IMG/VR virus record: IMGVR_UViG_3300042295_001683
Coordinates: 1-64,000 of that record
Direction: 5' to 3' (one strand)
DNA length: 64,000 bases
From: a virus
Lineage: Duplodnaviria; Caudoviricetes
The first letter of the stretch is position 1; each line of letters opens with the position of its first letter. Below, piece by piece: positions 4,637 to 62,375 of the stretch. The notes beneath the pieces are model-generated. The model ran no database searches. It was not told the origin of the DNA and saw only the letters and a program-made list of their open reading frames with translations. The translations under genes and the position numbers were made by a program.

Positions 4637-5800
4637 CTATGACTGAATATCGCGATACCGTAGCAGACTGCACTCGTTATCAGGGGCGGCTTTACGGAAC
4701 TCTAATCCGTAAGCGCTGTAATCGAATCTGTGGGTTTTTCTAAAGGTATTCCTAGCAAATGGACACCCTCTAGATATTGCAAGCTGATAAGCCATCTCTA
4801 GCGTCATCCATTCATTCTCAAACTCTGTTGCTTGCACCCGTGAGAAGAAAGAAATCTCATGATGATCACGATTGTAGCGATGGATTTCCCCTGCTACAGA
4901 GCGATTGTAGAGAAGTTTGGATAATTTTCTTAGCTCAATATTCTCGCCTAGCAGATCATTTAGCTTGTAAGCAATTGTTACGGCATCCTGCCATTTATCG
5001 GTAAGCACTGAGTTAATCTGCTCAGTCGAGATAATCCGCTTAGCGACTCCCTTCTTTTTATCTGATTCAACTTTCTTACGGGTGCGGGTGCGTTTTGGAT
5101 TACTCCAATCTAATAAAAGTTTCTGAACATCAGGGTGCATCCTATACCGTTTTTTGAGCGATGGTAGATACACTTTTAGGCTGGCATATTCACCTCCGCT
5201 AGCCTTATAAGCAAGCAAAGCTTTTATACGCTGACCATCGGGGCGATCGCAGATCGGTGGTTTTTGTCGTGGGCATAACGGGGCACTGTAGGCAAAAAAG
5301 CTGTATAGATTCAGTATTGATAGCAAACCACTCAAACAGGGCTTTAAACACGCAAAAATATATAGGTACGTTGGTGATTTGCGATCTGTTAGCCTTTCGC
5401 GGTTACGAATCCGCTTACGTTGCTTTTTGGCTTTCGGCTTTGCAACATTCTTGGGCGGCTTGGTCTTTGGGCGATCGCTTTTCGGTTTTGGCGGTGGAGA
5501 TGCGATCGTCTCTAACTCTGGTTCTGGTCTAGCTTTTGGCGGTTGTAATTTTGGCGCATCACCAATATGCAAAACGTTGCGATCTAATAGCGACTGCCAT
5601 AGGCTAGACCACTGATTTTTATACACCAAATACCGAGCTACGAATAACGCATTAGTGGCAATAGCGCGATCATCTTTGAGCTTGCGCCTTTGCTCATGTT
5701 CTGCGATCGCACTTAGGATCGGCGCAACTTGTCGCCATATTTCGGGGCTGGTGTCAGGGGAGGGAATTGCGGGGATGCAGATGGGTATGGTGGGTTTCAT
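4637..5800 (-). CDS. Hypothetical basic, probably DNA-binding protein
   Basis: 387-aa ORF with Pro/Lys-rich linker, coupled to the replication operon. Confidence 0.6.
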   Translation of the reverse strand: MKPTIPICIPAIPSPDTSPEIWRQVAPILSAIAEHEQRRKLKDDRAIATNALFVARYLVYKNQWSSLWQSLLDRNVLHIGDAPKLQPPKARPEPELETIASPPPKPKSDRPKTKPPKNVAKPKAKKQRKRIRNRERLTDRKSPTYLYIFACLKPCLSGLLSILNLYSFFAYSAPLCPRQKPPICDRPDGQRIKALLAYKASGGEYASLKVYLPSLKKRYRMHPDVQKLLLDWSNPKRTRTRKKVESDKKKGVAKRIISTEQINSVLTDKWQDAVTIAYKLNDLLGENIELRKLSKLLYNRSVAGEIHRYNRDHHEISFFSRVQATEFENEWMTLEMAYQLAISRGCPFARNTFRKTHRFDYSAYGLEFRKAAPDNECSLLRYRDIQS

Positions 5801-10447: not shown

Positions 10448-10817
10448 CGCTTTTTTTTGTTTACCTAAACTTGATTACCTAATAAGTATAGTACGATTGT
10501 ACACAAATAAACCATTAATTTACAAATCCCAACCCGCAAAGCATAGATATTTCTCTATGCAACGAGAGAGATAAATTCTTGATGTGTCATTATTTTTTAG
10601 AATGGGATTTCGTCTGTGCTTCCTTCAAGTTCTTGATCGATGTGAGATTTAGCCTCTGCAAGCGCTATTTGCAGATCAGCGCTGTAGCTAACAAATTGTG
10701 TTCTGCTCAGGCAGTCAAGTACTCTGATAGCTTGCCCTTCATCAGTTTTATAGTTTTCAAGTCGGTGGCTTCTATAAAACTCAGTGGATAGTGCGACACC
10801 TCTAAGAATTGGATTAC

Positions 10818-11988: not shown

Positions 11989-12576
11989 TTATTCAAAAAA
12001 TCCGCATCCTAGATGTTTGCGACCTCCCAACCCTTTCTCTTGTAATATTAAAGACTCGTTAGGGCGCAAATCTGAAAACATTACAGGGTATACAGCACAC
12101 GGTTGCTTTTTAATAATTAGCTGCTCCTTGCGCCCTATTGTTGGCAGTGTATTAATATCAAACTTTGTTAGTTGCTTGCCTAGCGACACCGCAAACCTAG
12201 TAAGATCGGGTTCACGATTGTTGTCGGTTTTAATTGATACCCAAGCCGCTAGATTCTCTTGAGATTTTAGCTCTGTGCCATTAACCAGCTTGAGTTTAAT
12301 CAACTCTTTGCCTAAATGGATTTGACAATCAAAAAGCATCGTTAGCTCTGTAATTAAATCTTTGGAGCAACGTAGCTTTATAGTGCTTTGAGTTAAACGT
12401 AATGTGCGATCGTCAAAAATATTTGTGTTACTGATTCTACTGATCGCCCACTCAGGGTTATCTTTGAGCTTAGGAGATAAGCTGGTCAGCGCTGAATATA
12501 AGCAATAGTGATAATTCCGTGGGATTAACACCCCTTCAATACTGAATAAAAATTCTATAAAATTGCAGTTAGGCAT
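11989..12576 (-). CDS. cas6: CRISPR-associated endoribonuclease Cas6 (Myxan/Cmx6-like)
   Basis: N-terminal F-x-I-x-G-x-x-IP-x-x-Y-x-Y-x-LYSAL; C-terminal SLILQEKGLGGRKHLGCGFF G-loop. Confidence 0.88.
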   Translation of the reverse strand: MPNCNFIEFLFSIEGVLIPRNYHYCLYSALTSLSPKLKDNPEWAISRISNTNIFDDRTLRLTQSTIKLRCSKDLITELTMLFDCQIHLGKELIKLKLVNGTELKSQENLAAWVSIKTDNNREPDLTRFAVSLGKQLTKFDINTLPTIGRKEQLIIKKQPCAVYPVMFSDLRPNESLILQEKGLGGRKHLGCGFFE

Positions 12577-38089: not shown

Positions 38090-39976
38090 CTATAAAGTAG
38101 CTAATCCGATCATTGTATTTGGCTTAATTGGATTGTAATTAATATACAAATCTGCTAAGCCGATCATTGTAGAAGGGGCGATCGGGTTGAAATTTATACG
38201 TAAATCTGCAAGCCCGATCATATTAAAATTGCCTAACGTAATCGCAACGGGGCGCGATATTACCGTAGGGGTGCTAGCGGGGGCTGTACCAACTTCGATA
38301 CCGTTAAAAACTAACCATGCTTCTGTCCCATTTAATCCCCATTTAATGCAATCTAATTTTAAGTAATAAATTAAATCTGCGTCTGTCACCGCTACATCCG
38401 CAAAAGGCTTAAAAGCACTACTTAAAGCTGTGTCAGTAATCGCGCCGCCAAATTGCTGACCATAAGCACGCCCTGATAATATGCGATTAAATCGAGAGCC
38501 ATAATCAACTAATTGAGACTGATCAACTGTGTAGGGTACATCTATTGTTCTTTGCCTTGGTCGGTACGGATCGGCGGCTAATTGCTGTGCAAATATTTCT
38601 GCTTTTAGCTGTACTTCTTCTGTAGTGTTTGTGCTTGCATCACCAAAATTTGTAGGTGGGCCAGACGTATCTTTATCGTCGCTAAAGTTTGCCGCTGTAA
38701 ATAGCACAGTAGGATTTTGATCGCCTAATGCCGTCCCTTTAAAAATTACTCCTGCTGGTTCATGTCGAGTATAAGTTTTAATCCATTTTTGCGATCCTGT
38801 GTTTACCCATTCATAATCTTCTCTTTTAGCCGTAATTAGTACTGAAGGATTTTGATCGCCAAAAGTAGTTCCTTTTATAATTACCCCTGCTGGTTGAAAA
38901 GATGTTACAGTTTGAGCCGTAACAATCCCATTGACAAGAGTATAAGTATTTATGGATTTGTCAGATATAAATAGCACAGTAGGATTTTGATCGCCTAATG
39001 CCGTCCCTTTAAAAAGTACCCCTGCTGGTTCGCGTGTTTCTATGGTTTTTTCAAAAAATGTTGAACTTATCTCTGATGTGGTTATTGTCCTTTTAGCCGT
39101 AAATAACGCGGTAGGATTTTGATCTCCAAAAGTAGTCCCTTTAAAAAGTACCCCTGCTGGCTGTGTGTCAATTACTTCGCTAGGTGCGGTGTCTACAGGT
39201 ATTATTTCTTTTACCGTACCTGTAACTATTAATTTTTCAATTGGTTGTTCTGCGATATCACCGATCGCGTCCCATAATTTTTCGTCAGAGCCAATTATAT
39301 AAGAAGCGATAGCACTGCCAGAATAGATGGCACTGATAGGCTCTGCGATTACCGTACCAGCGCTATTGCATCGCAAATAGTACCCTGCACTATCAGCGAT
39401 CGCCCCTGCAAATCCAATAAAATTACCAGTTTGCTTTGGCAGTGGATAGGCGATCGGATAGGGGATAGAGTCAATCGAATTAGCAACGTCGATATAGTTA
39501 AGGATATTTGTGATTACGGTATTTCTTGCTAATGGTGTACCCGCCGTAATACCAGATATATCTTGATTTGGTTCGGGTGGAAAATTCTCTAAAGCTAATC
39601 GACAGCCAATTTCCAAAGATAATTCTAATATGCCATCCATATTCCTTTTTGGTTTTTGAGGCATTTTTAGCAAATGCAAAGCTTGCCCACTACAAGGCAG
39701 ATAAGTAAGCGTTCCTGATGTATTTGCAGTTCGGATCGTGACTAGTTGACCCCGTTTCCATTGACTAGGGTTAAGTCTAGGATTAGGTGAACTTGGCACG
39801 GTTGAATCGTAGCGAGAAATTTTAAGATTAATGGAGCCTGTGACTGGCATTAATCCAGTCCCAACCTCATATTCTGGATAACCCAAAATTATTCCAGAAT
39901 CAAAGCTAATCCAGTTAGTCCAATTTTGCGATCCTATAATTAATTCGCATCTGCGAGATGAGAGATTAAGCGTCAT
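38090..39976 (-). CDS. Putative tail hub/baseplate protein with internal repeats
   Basis: Four PAGV(L/I)(F/I)KGTxxGDQNPxxL repeats and three MIGLA repeats; position in the tail operon. Confidence 0.65.
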   Translation of the reverse strand: MTLNLSSRRCELIIGSQNWTNWISFDSGIILGYPEYEVGTGLMPVTGSINLKISRYDSTVPSSPNPRLNPSQWKRGQLVTIRTANTSGTLTYLPCSGQALHLLKMPQKPKRNMDGILELSLEIGCRLALENFPPEPNQDISGITAGTPLARNTVITNILNYIDVANSIDSIPYPIAYPLPKQTGNFIGFAGAIADSAGYYLRCNSAGTVIAEPISAIYSGSAIASYIIGSDEKLWDAIGDIAEQPIEKLIVTGTVKEIIPVDTAPSEVIDTQPAGVLFKGTTFGDQNPTALFTAKRTITTSEISSTFFEKTIETREPAGVLFKGTALGDQNPTVLFISDKSINTYTLVNGIVTAQTVTSFQPAGVIIKGTTFGDQNPSVLITAKREDYEWVNTGSQKWIKTYTRHEPAGVIFKGTALGDQNPTVLFTAANFSDDKDTSGPPTNFGDASTNTTEEVQLKAEIFAQQLAADPYRPRQRTIDVPYTVDQSQLVDYGSRFNRILSGRAYGQQFGGAITDTALSSAFKPFADVAVTDADLIYYLKLDCIKWGLNGTEAWLVFNGIEVGTAPASTPTVISRPVAITLGNFNMIGLADLRINFNPIAPSTMIGLADLYINYNPIKPNTMIGLATL

Positions 39977-41968: not shown

Positions 41969-42547
41969 CATTACCCAATAGTCTAGCCATAGTGCTACGT
42001 TATAAGGCGATCGCGCGATCGCCTTTTTTGTTGGATAAATTAGTTGTAAATAGTACTTGACAAATAATATTTAAGCGTTTAATATTATATTCAAGGTTAA
42101 ACATACAAAAGGAGCAAGACCATGACTAAGATTGAAGTTATTGAAGCGATTAACCAAGCATCTAAAGCTTGGGAAGATGTATACTATATTGTTGTCTGTC
42201 GATACATGACAAATAGGAAATACGGGGGCTTAGTAAGAACTTACAGCTATTTTTACGAAGGCCCGTCACTAGAAAGAGCTTTTGTAAATGCACAAGATGC
42301 GTTTAAGGAAAGAGATGCAAAGGTTACTTTAGTGACGCTATCTCATGCCAATTCTTTTCTTGGGGTAGAAACCGAACTAAGCAAAGAAGCTGTTGTCTAA
42401 CAGATCATTACCCAATAGTCTAGCCATAGTGCTACGTTATAAGGCGATCGCGCGATCGCCTTTTTTGTTGGATAAATTAGTTGTAAATAGTACTTGACAA
42501 ATAATATTTAAGCGTTTAATATTATATTCAAGGTTAAATATACAAAA
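41969..42547 (+). repeat. 142-bp direct repeat (terminator + promoter unit) flanking one gene
   Basis: 41969-42110 vs 42406-42547 with one mismatch; contains the hairpin AAGGCGATCGCGCGATCGCCTT+T-run and TTGACA-17-TAATAT. Confidence 0.9.
42122..42400 (+). CDS. Small accessory protein with a chimeric N-terminus
   Basis: AAGGAG RBS; first 19 codons nearly identical to the 41736 ORF. Confidence 0.65.
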   Translation: MTKIEVIEAINQASKAWEDVYYIVVCRYMTNRKYGGLVRTYSYFYEGPSLERAFVNAQDAFKERDAKVTLVTLSHANSFLGVETELSKEAVV

Positions 42548-42787: not shown

Positions 42788-43306
42788 ATGTACGCATTTG
42801 ACAGAGACGGAGTATTGGTGGGTGAGCTAGGCAATTTCGCTGCCAGTCACCCGAAAAACTACAAGGGCGCTGAGATGCCCCTTATCAAAGAGGTGCTAGC
42901 CAAAGTACCGCCTCATTCGATCATTATCAGTAATCAAGCTGGCATTGATCGCGGCTATACCACACTCAAAGTGGTACAAGCTCAATTTGATTGGCTCATG
43001 GCGCAGCAGCCTAATTTTATCGGGGCTTTCTTTTGCCCTGATGAAGGGGAAAGTTGCTGGTTTAAGTTTTTTTGGGCAGACGAATGGACAGAGCAGTTAG
43101 CGATTGCCCCATACTTCAGAAAGCCTAATATAGGCTTGGGAGACTCCGCCAACGTGTATCTAAATCATTATGGGCTTGGCCAGATCACCCATTACATAGG
43201 AGATCTTTCTGGCAACCCCGCCTATGCTGAGGGTAGAGACAGCGATCGCATCTTTGCGCAAAATCTGGGCTGTGAGTATTTGGATGTGAATGATTTTTTA
43301 GCTTGA
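42788..43306 (+). CDS. HAD-family phosphatase (polynucleotide 3'-phosphatase/GmhB-like)
   Basis: AFDRDGVL, ISNQAGI, FCP, RKPNIG, YIGD...SDRIFA. Confidence 0.85.
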   Translation: MYAFDRDGVLVGELGNFAASHPKNYKGAEMPLIKEVLAKVPPHSIIISNQAGIDRGYTTLKVVQAQFDWLMAQQPNFIGAFFCPDEGESCWFKFFWADEWTEQLAIAPYFRKPNIGLGDSANVYLNHYGLGQITHYIGDLSGNPAYAEGRDSDRIFAQNLGCEYLDVNDFLA

Positions 43307-46613: not shown

Positions 46614-46914
46614 CTTCCAATCAGCCGATCACTTAACCAGAAGTTTCACCACTATCGCCTCTCTTCCAATCAGCCGATCGCTTAACCAAAAGTTTCACCA
46701 TTCTGAGTTTCCAAAAATTGCAAATAACCTTGCCTTCCAATCAATTGATCGTCTAACCACTAGTTTCACCATGAACTAGAGCGCCGCTTTACAGCCTGTA
46801 TCGGTACTTCCAATCAGCCGATCGCTTAACCAAAAGTTTCACTGGACAAAATGACAATTTTATATGTCAGCTACCTTCCTTCCAATCAGCCGATCGCTTA
46901 ACCAGAAGTTTCAC
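46614..46914 (-). CRISPR. CRISPR mini-array: five 36-bp repeats, four spacers
   Basis: Repeat GTGAAACTTCTGGTTAAGCGATCGGCTGATTGGAAG (minus strand) at 46879-46914, 46807-46842, 46734-46769 (degenerate), 46663-46698, 46614-46649; spacers 36, 37, 35 and 13 nt from the leader end. Confidence 0.95.
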
Positions 46915-48643
46915 CTAACAGATCCCAAAAACCAAGCTGAGAGCCAATATTAGGATCGATTTGCGCGGATCGCTTACGAGATTGCAATTTAGAGTCGGCT
47001 TTAGATAGTGATTTTAAATCTTGCCATAGCTCAAAGTCTTGTGGTGATTGGTTTTCAGAGTTTGCGCGAGTGGTTAGGTTGCGATCTAGCTGTAAATCAT
47101 TGTCTGGTAAGGGCTTAAGCTTATCAGCTTCCAATCTTTTATCAGTACTATTTACAGCCCCGCTTTCGCGGTTGATTGCGGGAGTTGTTTCTCCTCCCGA
47201 TCCTTTCTTACTCTTGCGAGTCTTACTCGGTTGGCGCTTCTTCCCATGCGTTGCATGATCCACGCCCTTAAATTCCCCCGATGAAGCGGGGTATGGTATC
47301 AGTACCAAGCCTTTAAAAGCAACATTACGGATAACGGTTGAGGCGTTGTTATCTGCGTTGTCACCATGACCACAATTCAAGCATTTAAAAACAGCTTGAG
47401 ATGGTCGAAACTTTTCGGAATAGTAGCCACACTGAGAGCAACCTTGAGAAGTGTGCGGTGCGGGTACTTTCACAAATATTCTTTCTGATGCTTTAGATTT
47501 AGTCTCTAGCATCGTCTTTGTTTTACCGATCGCCACATCATGAAGCGATTTATTTAAACCAGCTTTAGCAGCCGATCCGTTGGGTAGAAAAGCGCCATTT
47601 TCACCAGCTTTCGCCTTTGGTGCGCGTACCATATTTTTAACTTTGGTATCTTCAATGGCGATGCTTTGATATTCACTTACATATTTTGAAGTGAGCTTAT
47701 GGATAAAGCGATCCCTTTGCCTAGCGATTTTAAGATGCGCTTTAGCTAGTTTAGAGCGTTTAGCTTTTAGCCTGTTAGAGCCATCTTTTGAGCGAGAGAT
47801 AGAGCGCTGAATACGAGCTAATTTCTTAGCTTGCATCTTTGCGTAACGCTTAGATTTGTGTAGTCTCCCATCACTATCTGCAATAGGAGCGACTACACCA
47901 AAATCTAAACCTACTTCTTGCTTTTTTGCTGGTTTAACGGGCTTTACATCTACCGTGCTAGTGAATTGCACATAATAACCATCAGCTTTTTGGACGATGC
48001 GTACAATCGTATGATTGCCAGCATAGCGACGGTAGAATCCCTTGCATTTGATTTGTCCTAGTCTTGGATAATCAATTAATGCATTGTCATTACCCAAGGG
48101 CAAAATATTAACGTATATCCGACCGTTGCCATTAGAAAAGCTTTCTAATTTATCAGCTTTCTTTTTGTAACGTGGTCTGCCTTTTTTTCCCTTGCGGTAC
48201 TGAGTCCATGCATCAATTAGGTTATCCACAACAGATCGCCGTGATTCGCCATCAATAGAGTGTAGAAAATCAGGACACCGCATATTAGCGATAAAGCGAT
48301 AATTTTTAACGTGCTTAAATGGCTCTTCAATATCCCGATGTTTGCGGATGTCGCATTTATCAGGATAGTAAGCACAGCAAAGCCCGTATTGATTATCAGG
48401 ATTTACATACTCAATCCCGTCGATTTTGCATGATTTTCGCCATTGCCATACTTCAGGACTATACTCTGCCCATTCTTGTTTTGCCCTCCAATAACGTTGC
48501 TGATCTTCCTCAAGCAGACTTAAACCAACATTCCATACCCATTTAAGTTGAGTAAGCCACAAATCAATTTGTGTGCTTTGCTCAATCGTGGGAGACAACT
48601 TAAATTCAGTTATCTTTTTAGTAGTGGCTTCATTGCTAGTCAT
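46898..48643 (-). CDS. TnpB-family RNA-guided nuclease, type V-U2 (C2c8)-like Cas12
   Basis: EFKLSPTIEQSTQIDLWLTQLKWVWNVGL N-terminus; RuvC VGLDFG / IAIED / NADNNA; zinc finger CSQC...CLNC; adjacent array; no tnpA. Confidence 0.85.
   Translation of the reverse strand: MTSNEATTKKITEFKLSPTIEQSTQIDLWLTQLKWVWNVGLSLLEEDQQRYWRAKQEWAEYSPEVWQWRKSCKIDGIEYVNPDNQYGLCCAYYPDKCDIRKHRDIEEPFKHVKNYRFIANMRCPDFLHSIDGESRRSVVDNLIDAWTQYRKGKKGRPRYKKKADKLESFSNGNGRIYVNILPLGNDNALIDYPRLGQIKCKGFYRRYAGNHTIVRIVQKADGYYVQFTSTVDVKPVKPAKKQEVGLDFGVVAPIADSDGRLHKSKRYAKMQAKKLARIQRSISRSKDGSNRLKAKRSKLAKAHLKIARQRDRFIHKLTSKYVSEYQSIAIEDTKVKNMVRAPKAKAGENGAFLPNGSAAKAGLNKSLHDVAIGKTKTMLETKSKASERIFVKVPAPHTSQGCSQCGYYSEKFRPSQAVFKCLNCGHGDNADNNASTVIRNVAFKGLVLIPYPASSGEFKGVDHATHGKKRQPSKTRKSKKGSGGETTPAINRESGAVNSTDKRLEADKLKPLPDNDLQLDRNLTTRANSENQSPQDFELWQDLKSLSKADSKLQSRKRSAQIDPNIGSQLGFWDLLGETSG
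46915..47140 (-). promoter_or_regulatory. Cyanobacterial-type CRISPR leader embedded in the nuclease ORF
   Basis: Two CGCGCAAA motifs on the minus strand (~47061-47068 and ~46960-46967), as recalled for cyanobacterial leaders. Confidence 0.55.
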
Positions 48644-57077: not shown

Positions 57078-57300
57078 GGGTTTGTTTTATTTGGTTTAAT
57101 TCCTATTGTCCTGATTTCTGCGTTTCCTTTAGCCCAGTACCAAGTATTCACCCAATTTTTAATATGTATTTGTACGAATCTAACTCCATTTATTGATTGA
57201 GTTAGAACTTCATTTATTTGCGCTGATGGATAGACTCTTGCAAAATTTAAAGCCGTAACCCATTCAGGACGAGTATGCCTTATTCGTCTTAGTTTCCTTT

Positions 57301-57711
57301 TCACGCAACCACTCCTTTAAAAGCTCCGATTACAAACTGAAAATTGCTAGGCACAAACGGATGTGCCATCGGCACAGGACGAAGTAAACCAACACGCTTA
57401 CCGCCTAAATCTAACTCACAACGCACGTTATTAAATGACGCAAAATTAGCTGGTAAACATTTGGGATCTTGAATCCATATCTTGATCGGTGTTTCCTCCA
57501 CACTAGCGCCGATCGTCTCAAGTAATTGCGGATTACTTTCACGTACAGCCCAGCCTTGCACCGCTCTTGTATCGCTATCAATCACAGGATTACCTAGCGC
57601 GTTAACCGTGCCTGTATCTATGCTATTGCGTACCCAAAACGTGCAGTTATATTGGTAACTGCCATCGGGGTTCTTGGGCGCAAATGGGGGGATGAGGTTA
57701 GGGAGTTGCAT
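57301..57711 (-). CDS. Putative head-closure / head-tail joining protein
   Basis: NALGNPV motif; position near the morphogenesis gene. Confidence 0.5.
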   Translation of the reverse strand: MQLPNLIPPFAPKNPDGSYQYNCTFWVRNSIDTGTVNALGNPVIDSDTRAVQGWAVRESNPQLLETIGASVEETPIKIWIQDPKCLPANFASFNNVRCELDLGGKRVGLLRPVPMAHPFVPSNFQFVIGAFKGVVA

Positions 57712-60975: not shown

Positions 60976-61485
60976 TTACAAATATCCTGCGTAATCAAAC
61001 TCAAAAATAATGCTATCCAGTAGCGGCGCTTGATCGATCTGCTTTGGAGGTGGAAGTTGCTTGTATAGATCTAAAAGCTTGGCAACTTTCGCCGCCGCTA
61101 GTGATAAACCCTCACTTAGGTTTGTCTCAGTAATCGGATCAAGTCCTGCTACGTCTCTATATGCATTGATTTGATTTAGCGTAAGCCTATCTGTATTCAT
61201 GTGATCCTTTAGCAATACCCAAGATTTTTTCCTAACGTCAACTTGACGATTGAGCATCTTGGTAAACTCATCCATCGCAATATTCCGATAAATAATTATC
61301 TCTATGCCTTGATACTTGACTGGATTACCATTGATAATCGCAGGAAAATTGATGCCGCCTTCTTCTAAATCTTCATCTGGCAACATCAAGATAGAGGGTT
61401 GCACAATGTCGCCAAAATACCTGATGCCAATTAGATCGGGAATAGCAGCGAGTATGGCTGTTCTGATTTCAAGCGGTGTTTTCAC
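60976..61485 (-). CDS. Putative virion (tail terminator-like) protein
   Basis: 169-aa ORF on the structural strand; assignment by position only. Confidence 0.4.
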   Translation of the reverse strand: MKTPLEIRTAILAAIPDLIGIRYFGDIVQPSILMLPDEDLEEGGINFPAIINGNPVKYQGIEIIIYRNIAMDEFTKMLNRQVDVRKKSWVLLKDHMNTDRLTLNQINAYRDVAGLDPITETNLSEGLSLAAAKVAKLLDLYKQLPPPKQIDQAPLLDSIIFEFDYAGYL

Positions 61486-61646
61486 GATGGCAACCGATAA
61501 AGCTTTGTGCTAATATTGTAAACGCGATCGCGCATAGAGCAGATCAAGTGTTGGTGCAAGCCCAAAGGTTTAGGGTGTGGATAGTCGCCTTGTAATCGTG
61601 CCGCCTAAAAGTCTCGTCCTCCTTGTCCTAAACGCGATCGCTTTAA

Positions 61647-61764
61647 CCGAGAGTAGCTCTAAGTGGATAGAGCATCGTGAAGGTTCTGATGTCATATAAG
61701 TAGCTCTTATACTGACTAAATGGCTTGTAAGCGAAGGTTATAGGTTCAAATCCTATCTCTTGGA
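61647..61764 (+). ncRNA. tRNA-like RNA with an expanded anticodon arm
   Basis: Acceptor CCGAGAG/CTCTTGG, D-arm GCTC-TAAGTGGATA-GAGC, T-arm ATAGG-TTCAAAT-CCTAT; ~60-nt insert replaces the anticodon arm. Confidence 0.75.
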
Positions 61765-61766
61765 TT

Positions 61767-62375
61767 TTAATTAAACACAGTTTCAGCTACACAATGCGCG
61801 ATCGCTTTCTGAGTTTTAGCTAACTCTAATTTGAGCTTATCCACTTTCTTAGTTCCAATCTTTGACCACTTAAGCTCATCAACTATCTCAGCAATCCTAT
61901 CGGCGCGTAATTCGCCAAGTGTGGCGATGAGAGAGGCTTTGTCATGCAATATGGGATTATGGCCCCATTTAATCACCACGCTACTATATGGTGATGATTG
62001 CGGCATCAAGCTAATCGTAATCACAATGGTATCCGCAAAAACAGGATCAGGCGCTTTGCATTGCGAGTAAACAAAGTGGAATAAATCTTGATTACCATCG
62101 TCAAACTTTTGCCCAAAGTACTGAGATAGGCTGTCAATCAAACCATCTCTCACAGGTTTAAAAGCGATCGCCAAGCCGTCATCATCCATCGGTCTATTAG
62201 CAGCAGCAAAGCGATGAAAGTGTATGCGTAATTGTGATTTGGTATCCCAATCAAAAGCAGACTCAATCGCGCCGCCTTGCTTCAGTGATTGCTTTTCTTT
62301 GAGGTGTAGTATCCAGTTACCACGCCCGTTACTTGTGTTTTTGGGCGGTTCGTCTATGATGTATTGGATTAGCAT
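61767..62375 (-). CDS. RusA-like Holliday junction resolvase
   Basis: PPKNTSN, RPMDDDGLAIAFKPVRDGL, FDDG. Confidence 0.65.
   Translation of the reverse strand: MLIQYIIDEPPKNTSNGRGNWILHLKEKQSLKQGGAIESAFDWDTKSQLRIHFHRFAAANRPMDDDGLAIAFKPVRDGLIDSLSQYFGQKFDDGNQDLFHFVYSQCKAPDPVFADTIVITISLMPQSSPYSSVVIKWGHNPILHDKASLIATLGELRADRIAEIVDELKWSKIGTKKVDKLKLELAKTQKAIAHCVAETVFN

What the first reader, a model, noticed from the sequence alone, without database searches (positions are those of the whole stretch)
61647..61764. tRNA-like RNA whose anticodon arm is replaced by a ~60-nt hairpin
Seen: intact 7-bp acceptor stem, D-arm with GG and canonical T-arm (TTCAAAT). Between them is a long insert closed by TCGT/GCGA with an inner hairpin GTCA-TATAAG-(TAGCT)-CTTATA-C-TGAC. 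There is no 7-nt anticodon loop and no encoded CCA. The insert is too short for a group I intron. Inference: a tRNA mimic (decoy for anticodon nucleases, or a tRNA scaffold presenting a hairpin), or a tRNA with an unusual protein-spliced intron. The phage also carries a 3'-phosphatase-like HAD gene.
Basis: partly seen in the sequence, partly recalled or inferred. Interest (0 to 1): 0.7.

Follow-up and report, generated by a model that had tools for sequence, protein, structure and literature searches.

The report
Non-decoding tRNA-shaped cassette gene in cyanophage
A freshwater cyanobacterial virus carries a gene shaped like a transfer RNA whose decoding arm is pushed aside by a 45-base insert, one of a small family of such odd tRNA look-alikes that related viruses swap in and out of the same spot.

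Summary
A canonical loop CTTGTAA (a tRNA-Thr UGU loop) lies directly 5' of the GCGA strand, so ARAGORN with introns allowed reads tRNA-Thr(UGU) plus a 45-nt insert.

Removing the insert leaves only a 4-bp anticodon stem. Nothing in the window suggests self-splicing. I found no RNA ligase among the 131 ORFs scanned, and one RNA-library contig crosses the element unspliced.

The gene lies between two minus-strand genes. In 16 related loci this slot holds canonical tRNA-Pro, tRNA-Met or tRNA-Tyr, other aberrant tRNA-likes, remnants or nothing.

The aberrant relatives keep acceptor, D and T arms, with compensatory changes. Each carries a different plain hairpin or long insert where the anticodon arm should be.

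The identical cassette sits in phage backbones whose flanks are 9-30% diverged. Its mosaic borders fall at HIP1 octamers (GCGATCGC).

My odds: 0.4 a non-decoding tRNA-body RNA still under selection (a decoy or scaffold); 0.3 a decaying relic; 0.15 a protein-spliced hairpin mini-intron.

This scan has noted hairpin inserts in phage tRNA-Thr genes on other DNA before.

The parts
61647..61764 (+). Whole tRNA-shaped gene (118 nt), no encoded CCA
   Evidence: Sequence; ARAGORN -i calls tRNA-Thr(UGU) with a 45-nt insert; 0 hits in 30 shuffled genomes; cloverleaf-like minimum-energy fold, z -2.4
61647..61653 (+). Acceptor stem 5' strand CCGAGAG; pairs with 61757-61763 CTCTTGG; G3-U70 wobble
   Evidence: 7 of 7 pairs. 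In the L074 variant position 3 is A, giving A-U
61656..61673 (+). D arm GCTC-TAAGTGGATA-GAGC with GG
   Evidence: 4 of 4 stem pairs
61675..61678 (+). TCGT, 5' strand of the residual 4-bp anticodon stem; pairs with GCGA at 61731-61734
61679..61723 (+). 45-nt insert; holds an AU-rich hairpin and a second copy of the 9-mer AGTAGCTCT, which also lies at 61652-61660
   Evidence: ARAGORN -i; 9-mer duplicate and hairpin energy z -1.0; no other copy in the window at up to 3 mismatches or in IMG/VR by exact 22-mer
61691..61716 (+). Inner hairpin GTCATATAAG-TAGCT-CTTATA(C)TGAC
61724..61730 (+). CTTGTAA, a canonical 7-nt anticodon-loop sequence of tRNA-Thr(UGU) type, displaced to the 3' side of the insert
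   Evidence: partly paired with the insert (AGGUU/GGCUU) in the minimum-energy fold
61735..61756 (+). Variable loop AGGTT and T arm ATAGG-TTCAAAT-CCTAT
   Evidence: Only part matched by Rfam tRNA RF00005, 15.2 bits; 5 of 5 stem pairs
61757..61764 (+). Acceptor 3' strand CTCTTGG and discriminator A, followed by a TTTTAAT trailer
61522..61805 (.). Mosaic cassette identical between the window and L082: upstream module plus tRNA-like gene plus 41 nt, bounded by HIP1 octamers at 61524-61531 and 61798-61805. A third HIP1 at 61634-61641 marks the start of the L074/L076 patch
   Evidence: Difference maps; HIP1 positions
60976..61485 (-). Flanking gene, 169 aa, no family found
   Evidence: PHROGs and Pfam give nothing; no PDB sequence match; used to find related loci
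61767..62375 (-). Flanking gene, 202 aa, no family found; its stop codon abuts the element
   Evidence: PHROGs and Pfam give nothing; no PDB sequence match; used to find related loci

Best explanation
This is a tRNA-derived gene that cannot decode as encoded.

Shown:
- It keeps a complete tRNA body (acceptor stem, D arm, T arm), and a tRNA-Thr(UGU)-type loop sequence is still visible.
- Its anticodon arm was remodelled by a 45-nt insert that includes a duplicated fragment of tRNA 5' sequence.
- It is one allele of a cassette-like tRNA slot in a clade of HIP1-rich freshwater cyanophages.
- The cassette is exchanged between diverged phage backbones, and the recombination borders fall at HIP1 octamers.

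Inferred:
- The RNA is transcribed from the + strand like the true tRNAs in the same slot.
- Host RNase P and RNase Z mature it, and it receives CCA.
- It folds into an L-shaped body with an over-long, interrupted anticodon arm.
- It then acts through its tRNA body rather than by decoding, most plausibly as a decoy or sponge for a host factor that binds or cuts tRNAs. The arm would be the free or diversifying part.
For: Family anatomy: 7 distinct sequences (window, L074, L004a, L004b, L008, L033, L016).
- 48 of 49 acceptor pairs and 34 of 35 T-stem pairs are standard.
- All seven have a GG in the D region and a TTCRANT T loop.
- The stems show compensatory changes. Pair 49:65 is A-T, C-G or G-C. 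Pair 1:72 is C-G or T-A. L004b has changes on both sides at 50:64 and 51:63. Pair 12:23 is T-A or G-C, and by my reading of the L005 sequence printed, A-T.

Central domains: they run from 22 to 66 nt and cannot be aligned with one another. Each is a clean hairpin or a long insert without a canonical loop.
- L033: CCTTC-ATGG-GAAGG.
- L005: CCCAG-AGTTGAT-CTGGG.
- L004a: 6-7 bp stem with loop AGCCATA.
- L008: 9-nt loop.
- L016: 36 nt between GCCG and CGG.

Rfam's tRNA model still scores three relatives above its 29-bit cut-off: L016 type 46.6, L033 42.4 and L008 33.3 bits. The body is therefore tRNA-like by an independent measure.

True tRNAs (Pro UGG, Met CAU, Tyr GUA) occupy the same slot in the same orientation in sister phages.

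The window-type cassette is identical in backbones whose flanks differ by 9-11% (202-aa gene) and roughly 25-30% (169-aa gene).

The L016-type element has 0 differences in 98 nt between L016 and L035, where the downstream flanks are about 94% identical.

One 188-nt contig of an RNA library covers 61616-61803 without a gap.
Against: - No function, target or + strand transcript is shown.
- The RNA-library contig has no strand, runs about 30-40 nt beyond both ends of the gene, and could be read-through of the minus-strand operon or carried-over DNA.
- Decayed copies exist: L005/L006 have a broken T arm and lack the 3' acceptor strand, and L077 keeps only CTCTTGG plus the trailer.
- 3 of 17 slots hold nothing that ARAGORN calls a tRNA (L007, L078, L080), so the element is dispensable.
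- Two of the seven family members (L033, L016) were found with a pattern that demanded the T arm and 3' acceptor strand. This inflates apparent conservation.
- Identity across backbones could reflect a recombination hotspot rather than selection.
- In L074 the graft weakens the base of the residual anticodon stem (GGCGT against GCGAA).
- Only about 7 distinct sequences exist, too few for a statistical covariation test.
Confidence: 0.4

Rival explanations
1. Decaying relic. A former phage tRNA-Thr(UGU) gene was inactivated by an insertion or by illegitimate recombination between neighbouring tRNA cassettes. It persists only because the slot is shuffled faster than it is purged, and the RNA has no role.
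For: - Excision does not restore a normal anticodon stem (4 bp).
- The insert holds a duplicated 9-mer of the gene's own acceptor/D junction, which hints at a recombination scar.
- The hairpin energy is unexceptional.
- The same slot holds broken copies and remnants (L005/L006, L077) or nothing (L007, L078, L080).
- The L074-L076 allele is a chimera with a grafted 5' part.
- The phage has no other tRNA, so tRNAs are not needed for its growth.
Against: The model would need at least five separately altered anticodon arms while 48 of 49 acceptor pairs and 34 of 35 T-stem pairs stay intact, with compensatory changes. The anticodon stems of the sister genes are perfect helices, not eroded ones. The identical cassette occurs in several diverged backbones.
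Confidence: 0.3
2. Hairpin mini-intron. The transcript is a pre-tRNA-Thr(UGU). A host or phage nuclease cuts the insert out and an RNA ligase rejoins the halves, as proposed but never shown for the 'enigmatic' introns of other phage tRNAs.
For: - The canonical loop CUUGUAA with U33 and A37 lies next to the insert, and the rest of the tRNA is intact.
- Insert-bearing tRNA genes recur in unrelated phages. In L088/L119, removing 51 nt gives, by my reading, a perfect tRNA-Thr(UGU) with stem CGAGC/GCTCG and the same loop CTTGTAA. L120, L132 and L110 are further cases.
- Devoto et al. 2019 report introns in Lak phage tRNAs, including a tRNA-Thr(TGT) (PMC6784885; passages read).
- A PNK3P-type 3'-phosphatase gene is present at 42788-43306.
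Against: - Every excision register I tried leaves at most 4 stem pairs, one of them a T-G wobble.
- A G3-U70 pair would invite mischarging with alanine (recalled identity rule).
- I saw no bulge-helix-bulge in the fold, and there is no ribozyme or group I match in Rfam.
- No RNA ligase, kinase or endonuclease partner was found in 131 ORFs.
- No insert-free homologue appeared in any of the viral, genome and metagenome collection scans.
- The RNA-library contig that crosses the site is unspliced.
- The sister genes have no decodable loop to restore.
- L088 and L120 also carry a separate intact tRNA-Thr(UGU).
Confidence: 0.15
3. A DNA-level or antisense element. The conserved acceptor and T-arm ends serve as recombination sites for cassette exchange, or the reverse complement acts as a structure in the minus-strand mRNA between the 202-aa and 169-aa genes.
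For: - Mosaic borders fall at HIP1 sites flanking the cassette.
- By my reading of the slot sequences printed, 9 of 10 cassette starts lie 2-8 nt after a HIP1 or a near-HIP1 octamer.
- The flanking genes are transcribed on the opposite strand, so the RNA contig may be that mRNA.
Against: The T loop TTCAAAT and the D-loop GG read correctly only on the + strand. True tRNAs share that orientation. No integrase or other recombinase was found apart from RecT and a TnpB-like ORF. The borders lie at HIP1, not inside the tRNA ends, apart from one patch end at 61675.
Confidence: 0.08

Closest known systems
Phage-encoded tRNA genes and tRNA regions with aberrant members, such as the T4 tRNA region with the small RNAs RNAC and RNAD of unknown role (PMC3014915, one passage read)
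   Same: It sits in a slot that holds true tRNA genes in sister phages, in the same orientation, and it has a tRNA body.
   Different: It has no decodable anticodon arm. The phage has no canonical tRNA at all. I did not compare sequences with RNAC or RNAD.
'Enigmatic' introns in Lak megaphage tRNAs, including a tRNA-Thr(TGT) (Devoto et al. 2019, PMC6784885; passages read; supplements not seen)
   Same: A short non-group-I insert in the anticodon region of a phage tRNA-Thr(UGU)-type gene, with no known removal mechanism.
   Different: Here excision does not restore a 5-bp stem, and I found no insert-free allele. The host is a cyanobacterium and the phage is a 73-kb virus carrying a tape-measure gene. 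I could not compare intron sequences because Supplementary Table 6 is closed.
tRNA-like domains that work without an anticodon: the tmRNA tRNA-like domain and mascRNA-type tRNA-like RNAs (recalled)
   Same: Acceptor/T-arm minihelix with a D-region elbow, and an arm that does not decode. A G3-U70 pair as in tmRNA and tRNA-Ala.
   Different: At 118 nt it has no pseudoknots or tag reading frame. ARAGORN finds no tmRNA. Rfam lists no tmRNA match (RF00023) at gathering scores over the window or at E up to 10 over 61500-61900. The G3-U70 pair is replaced by A-U in the L074 allele.
Phage tRNAs that counter tRNA-cutting defences through altered anticodon loops (eLife 2023, PMC10264068; Nature 2024, PMC11464382; Nat Commun 2024, PMC11555353; search listing and abstracts only)
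   Same: The anticodon arm is the fast-changing part of phage tRNA genes, which fits a conflict with host nucleases.
   Different: Those tRNAs still decode. These could only act as decoys, and no defence system or cleavage is shown here.
Group I introns in cyanobacterial tRNA-Leu(UAA) and tRNA-fMet genes (recalled; review PMC3984707 seen in the search listing)
   Same: An insert in the anticodon region of a tRNA gene in the cyanobacterial world.
   Different: The insert is 45 nt against roughly 200 nt or more. Rfam lists no group I intron match at gathering scores over the window or at E up to 10 over 61500-61900.

Membership tests
Canonical tRNA (Rfam RF00005) | 7-bp acceptor stem, D arm with G18 G19, T arm with a T54-T55-C56-R57-A58 loop | tested here: met
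   7 of 7, 4 of 4 and 5 of 5 pairs; GG present; loop TTCAAAT
Canonical tRNA (Rfam RF00005) | 5-bp anticodon stem closing a 7-nt loop with U33 | tested here: not met
   52 nt lie between TCGT and GCGA. After notional removal of 45 nt only 4 pairs remain, including one T-G
Canonical tRNA (Rfam RF00005) | Score at or above the family's gathering cut-off (29 bits); detection by default ARAGORN | tested here: not met
   15.2 bits, T arm only; 0 genes by default ARAGORN
Group I intron in a tRNA gene | Intron of about 200 nt or more with a P1-P9 core; Rfam match | tested here: not met
   The insert is 45 nt; no Rfam match at gathering scores or at E up to 10
Archaeal/eukaryal protein-spliced tRNA intron | Bulge-helix-bulge motif at the splice sites | tested here: not met
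   By inspection of the minimum-energy fold: a 2 x 4 internal loop, a 5-bp helix with three G-U pairs, then a 5 x 5 loop. There are no 3-nt bulges separated by 4 bp. Inspection only; alternative folds were not enumerated
Archaeal/eukaryal protein-spliced tRNA intron | Splicing endonuclease and ligase available | tested here: inconclusive
   None among 131 phage ORFs by Pfam; the host is unknown, so host enzymes are not testable
Phage 'hairpin mini-intron' / Lak 'enigmatic' tRNA intron | Insert inside the anticodon arm of an otherwise intact phage tRNA gene | tested here: met
Phage 'hairpin mini-intron' / Lak 'enigmatic' tRNA intron | Exact removal restores a canonical tRNA | tested here: not met
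   4-bp stem. By contrast, L088 gives a perfect tRNA-Thr(UGU) by my reading
Phage 'hairpin mini-intron' / Lak 'enigmatic' tRNA intron | Alleles with and without the insert among homologues | tested here: not met
   No insert-free homologue. The 5 window-type loci all carry the identical insert
tmRNA | tRNA-like domain plus tag reading frame and pseudoknots; ARAGORN or RF00023 match | tested here: not met
   No tmRNA by ARAGORN; no RF00023 match at gathering scores over the window or at E up to 10 over 61500-61900. Only the G3-U70 pair and the T arm resemble it
Small self-cleaving ribozymes (hammerhead, twister, pistol, hatchet) | Conserved catalytic core; Rfam match | tested here: not met
   No Rfam match. 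CUGAUG is present, but by my reading the helix-flanking GA/GAAA core is not. RAGATH-12 at 14.8 bits, E = 2, is chance level
Miniature mobile hairpin repeat (MITE/SDR-like) | Further copies of the insert elsewhere | tested here: not met
   1 match (itself) in the window at up to 3 mismatches; 0 exact matches of a 22-mer in IMG/VR. Cyanobacterial chromosomes were not searched
Phage attP copy of a host tRNA 3' end | Identity to a host tRNA gene and a nearby integrase | tested here: not met
   10 matches to the T-arm/acceptor pattern among 185,579 species genomes, none cyanobacterial; no integrase domain in 131 ORFs

The most novel reading that the evidence does not exclude
A clade of cyanophages maintains a natural 'tRNA scaffold'. 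The tRNA body supplies processing, stability and recognition. The former anticodon arm has become a free, fast-diversifying display hairpin that serves as a decoy or bait for host tRNA-directed nucleases or tRNA-binding factors. These cassettes are traded between phages at HIP1 octamers, which would also give HIP1 a visible role as a recombination junction.
Probability: 0.2. Interest if true: 0.8.

Novelty: new variant of a known kind. Interest (0 to 1): 0.55.

Why it matters
If the RNA is made and stable, it would be a natural case of a virus using the tRNA fold for something other than decoding. The part that normally reads codons would be left free to vary. That connects to the current question of why phages carry tRNA genes and how they answer tRNA-cutting defences.

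The cassette borders at HIP1 octamers give a concrete place to test what this very abundant and unexplained cyanobacterial palindrome does in recombination.

If instead the insert is spliced out, it would add a cyanophage to the still unexplained short introns of phage tRNA genes.

If it is a relic, it shows how quickly phage tRNA slots turn over.

Tried and rejected
- Rfam. Gathering scores over the whole window gave nothing. At E up to 10 over 61500-61900 the only matches were Plastid-rps12 (18 bits), RAGATH-12 (14.8 bits) and the tRNA T arm (15.2 bits). I treat the first two as chance.
- Hammerhead idea. The insert contains CUGAUG, but I rejected this because the GA/GAAA core is missing by my reading and Rfam gives no match.
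- Mobile hairpin repeat. No further copy in the window or in IMG/VR.
- attP. No cyanobacterial genome holds the 3' end pattern, and there is no integrase.
- tmRNA. None in the window. L035 768-862 gives a weak 22-bit tmRNA-model match in a relative, below the 47-bit cut-off.
- Alanine identity via G3-U70. The pair is present in 5 of 7 family members, but L074 has A-U and L004b has G-C, so it is not a fixed feature.
- Known phage genomes. Blastn against 50,697 records matched only generic T-arm pieces.
- More family members. Searches found none beyond the same phage group. The exact 3' end pattern gave 0.
- Flanking proteins. No PHROGs, Pfam or PDB sequence match.
- Promoter and terminator scan. 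Nothing near the element on the + strand beyond chance.
- RNA runs. No joint that skips the insert was seen in any of the 4 runs, but these are contigs, which drop rare forms, so this is no evidence of absence. X18 and X19 do not cover 61647-61764; their contigs carry other slot modules as loose ends.
- DNA run X2. It shows a joint 61641->61767 (depth 9 against about 46-55; side 30; laid at 90% likeness; 'between: not known'). I read it only as a probable relative with another cassette.
- Targets of the insert by complementarity in the phage genome. Only chance-level 9-13-mers.
- Isotype from body similarity. The best matches among the 478 ARAGORN calls were split between Thr(UGU), Gln and Arg, and the sample was biased by my own search patterns. 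I rejected this as a test.
- One search was a mistaken alignment and holds no result.
- MAFFT misaligned the D arm of the long members, so I counted pairs by script instead of using count of structure pairs or a covariance model.

Full report
**What the window is.** The window is the first 64 kb of a 73.4-kb IMG/VR virus record estimated 95% complete. It holds 79 HIP1 octamers (GCGATCGC) in 64 kb. It encodes a tape measure protein, RecT, a DnaB-type helicase, three DNA methyltransferases and anti-repressors. Its terminase is closest to those of isolated Leptolyngbya, Microcystis and Anabaena/Nostoc phages, at 27-35% identity. Seventeen lake-water DNA runs hold at least half of the sampled words of the region. 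I therefore read it as an uncultured freshwater cyanophage whose host is unknown.

**Checking the observation.**
- acceptor stem CCGAGAG/CTCTTGG with a G-T at 3:70;
- D arm with GG;
- T arm ATAGG-TTCAAAT-CCTAT;
- discriminator A and no encoded CCA;
- TCGT/GCGA closing a long insert that contains the hairpin at 61691-61716.

One statement is wrong. A canonical 7-nt loop sequence, CTTGTAA, lies directly 5' of GCGA. ARAGORN with introns allowed reads the gene as tRNA-Thr(UGU) with a 45-nt insert at 61679-61723.

That call is not chance. It is the only hit in the genome, and 30 dinucleotide shuffles of the genome give none. The whole element folds better than its shuffles (z = -2.4). The insert's hairpin alone does not (z = -1.0; 16% of shuffles are as stable).

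Default ARAGORN and Rfam gathering searches find nothing. The Rfam tRNA model matches only the T arm, at 15.2 bits.

**Is it an intron?** Several results argue against it:
- The insert is far too short for a group I intron, and no ribozyme or intron family matches.
- The minimum-energy fold has no bulge-helix-bulge by inspection.
- Removing the insert leaves a 4-bp stem with a T-G pair. No other register I tried gives 5 pairs with a U33 loop.
- Pfam scans of 131 ORFs found a PNK3P-type HAD phosphatase at 42788-43306, but no RNA ligase, kinase, splicing endonuclease or integrase.
- One contig of a metatranscriptome library covers 61616-61803 with no gap and no differences, so the unspliced form exists in an RNA library. 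Strand, ends and DNA carry-over cannot be judged from contigs.

**The slot in related phages.** I found relatives through the two flanking proteins, which belong to no known family. That gave 7 viral loci and 10 metagenome loci. I dropped L083 because its match touches the contig end and the slot is not on it.

Together with the window this makes 17 slots:
- 5 hold the window-type gene. L082 is identical to the window. L074, L075 and L076 have the same insert and 3' half but a different 5' part.
- 4 hold other aberrant tRNA-likes of the same acceptor family: L004 with two of them, L005 and L006 with a broken T arm followed by small ORFs and a true tRNA-Met, and L008.
- 4 hold only a canonical tRNA: Pro UGG in L003 and L009, Met CAU in L079, Tyr GUA in L081.
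- 1 holds only a remnant, CTCTTGG plus trailer (L077).
- 3 hold nothing that ARAGORN calls a tRNA (L007, L078, L080).

All tRNAs and tRNA-likes lie on the strand opposite to the flanking genes.

Pattern scans added L033 in the same slot of another phage. They also added a 98-nt 'TCGAGAG' type at a second slot in four contigs. In the window a 226-nt stretch with a small ORF occupies that second slot.

No cyanobacterial genome among 185,579 species representatives holds the 3' end pattern. Two further scans found no more members.

**Anatomy of the family.** I compared seven distinct sequences:
- 48 of 49 acceptor pairs and 34 of 35 T-stem pairs are standard.
- All have a TTCRANT T loop and a GG in the D region.
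- The stems carry changes on both sides. Pair 49:65 is A-T, C-G or G-C. Pair 1:72 is C-G or T-A. The D-stem pairs vary.
- The central domains are 22 to 66 nt long and cannot be aligned with one another.

Each central domain is a clean hairpin or a long insert with no canonical loop:
- a 5-bp stem with a 4-nt loop (L033);
- a stem with loop AGTTGAT (L005);
- a 6-7-bp stem with loop AGCCATA plus an extra arm (L004a);
- a 9-nt loop (L008);
- 36 nt between GCCG and CGG (L016 type).

Rfam's tRNA model still scores L016 type, L033 and L008 above its cut-off.

This pattern of a constrained tRNA body with an unconstrained arm is the main argument that the family does something that needs the tRNA shape but not decoding.

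Three caveats apply. Two members were found with patterns that required the T arm. Broken copies exist. The sample is too small for a formal covariation test.

**Cassette behaviour.** Three comparisons show that the gene travels as part of a cassette:
- Window and L082 are identical from 61522 to 61805. They then differ by 11% in the 202-aa gene, starting at 61806, the base after the HIP1 at 61798-61805. On the left, differences stop at 61521, just before the HIP1 at 61524.
- Window and L074/L076 are identical at 61508-61641 and at 61676-61805. A patch of 11-12 differences at 61642-61675 begins at the base after the HIP1 at 61634-61641. Their flanks differ by 9% to roughly 25-30%.
- By my reading of the sequences printed, 9 of 10 cassettes in the slot begin 2-8 nt after a HIP1 or near-HIP1 octamer.

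The gene is therefore part of a HIP1-bounded mosaic unit that has recently moved between diverged backbones. The grafted 5' part of L074 still pairs perfectly with the 3' acceptor strand (A3-U70 instead of G3-U70). It weakens the base of the residual anticodon stem.

The insert contains a second copy of the 9-mer AGTAGCTCT from the gene's own acceptor/D junction. This suggests that recombination between tRNA cassettes made the insert.

**Reading.** The following are firmly shown:
- a tRNA-derived gene that cannot decode as encoded;
- no match to any self-splicing intron or ribozyme family, and far too short for a group I intron;
- not a repeat family;
- not an attP copy;
- a location in a hypervariable, recombination-shuffled tRNA slot.

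What the RNA does is inferred. I give these odds:
- 0.4 that it is matured like a tRNA and acts through its body, for example as a decoy for tRNA-binding or tRNA-cutting host factors. In that case the arm is the free or diversifying part.
- 0.3 that it is a relic.
- 0.15 that it is a protein-spliced mini-intron.
- Under 0.1 that it is a DNA-level or antisense element.

**Comparison with what is known.** Phage tRNAs with altered anticodon loops that escape host nucleases are described (listing and abstracts only). Devoto et al. 2019 reported unexplained introns in Lak phage tRNAs, including a tRNA-Thr(TGT) (passages read; supplements closed). T4 makes two small RNAs of unknown role from its tRNA region (one passage read).

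My searches for 'tRNA-like' with 'cyanophage', for tRNA introns in bacteriophage, and for tRNA pseudogenes in bacteriophage found no description of this family.

Earlier notes of this scan report hairpin inserts in phage tRNA-Thr genes on other DNA. They gave me the Devoto lead. I tested the mini-intron criteria on this element, and it fails two of three.

**By-product of one scan.** Unrelated phages also carry insert-bearing tRNA genes (L088/L119, L120, L132, L110). In L088 removal of 51 nt gives, by my reading, a perfect tRNA-Thr(UGU). That phage also has a separate intact tRNA-Thr(UGU).

Noticed in passing
window 46663-46904 and 46898-48643(-): A 36-nt direct repeat occurs three times with period 72 (46663, 46807, 46879; one unit in between looks degenerate). 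It resembles a CRISPR mini-array and lies directly beside a 581-aa ORF with OrfB_IS605 and Cas12f1-like TNB domains. This may be a phage-borne type V-like system or a TnpB with guide repeats.
   Followed up: no
window 11989-12576(-): A Cas6 endoribonuclease gene (Pfam PF09559, E = 7e-33) in the phage, far from the repeat array.
   Followed up: no
window 61522-61805; HIP1 at 61524, 61634, 61798: Borders of identical and diverged blocks between related phages fall within 0-2 nt of HIP1 octamers. This suggests that HIP1 marks recombination junctions. The phage also encodes one C5 and two N6-adenine (Dam/D12-type) DNA methyltransferases.
   Followed up: partly
L088 about 10686-10811 (same in L119); L120 about 4975-5100; L132; L110: Unrelated, HIP1-free phage contigs carry tRNA genes with 25-52-nt inserts in the anticodon arm. 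In L088, removing 51 nt gives by my reading a perfect tRNA-Thr(UGU). The inserts of L088, L120 and L132 share the motif ACAGCAA. L088 and L120 also have a separate intact tRNA-Thr(UGU).
   Followed up: partly
L105 and L124 (listing): tRNA-like genes of about 61 nt in which the D arm is followed directly by the variable region and T arm, so the whole anticodon arm is missing. L092, L099, L135 and L145 hold an 85-nt tRNA-like with an odd anticodon region.
   Followed up: no
L016 8411-8508 (also L025, L030, L035); window 57084-57309: A second variable slot. Four related contigs hold a 98-nt tRNA-like (acceptor TCGAGAG, 46.6 bits on the Rfam tRNA model, 36 nt in place of the anticodon loop). The window has a 226-nt stretch with a 76-aa ORF there instead.
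   Followed up: partly
L035 755-870: Just upstream of the TCGAGAG element lie a degenerate tRNA-Met-like gene (loop CTCATAA), then an orphan T arm with a 3' acceptor piece, with repeated spacer motifs TTTATGATAAAT between units. A weak tmRNA-model match of 22 bits also falls here, below the cut-off.
   Followed up: no
window 41969-42101 and 42406-42538: A 133-nt direct repeat containing two adjacent HIP1 sites, plus further 24-48-nt repeats at 38698/38968, 41755/42141, 55449/56091 and 63340/63683.
   Followed up: no
L005 3634-4074 and L008 3911-4204 (locus coordinates): Small ORFs lie inside the slot of relatives, beside the tRNA-like genes: an 86-aa and a 44-aa Cys-rich ORF in L005, and a 97-aa zinc-ribbon-like ORF in L008. 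They were not scanned against family libraries.
   Followed up: no
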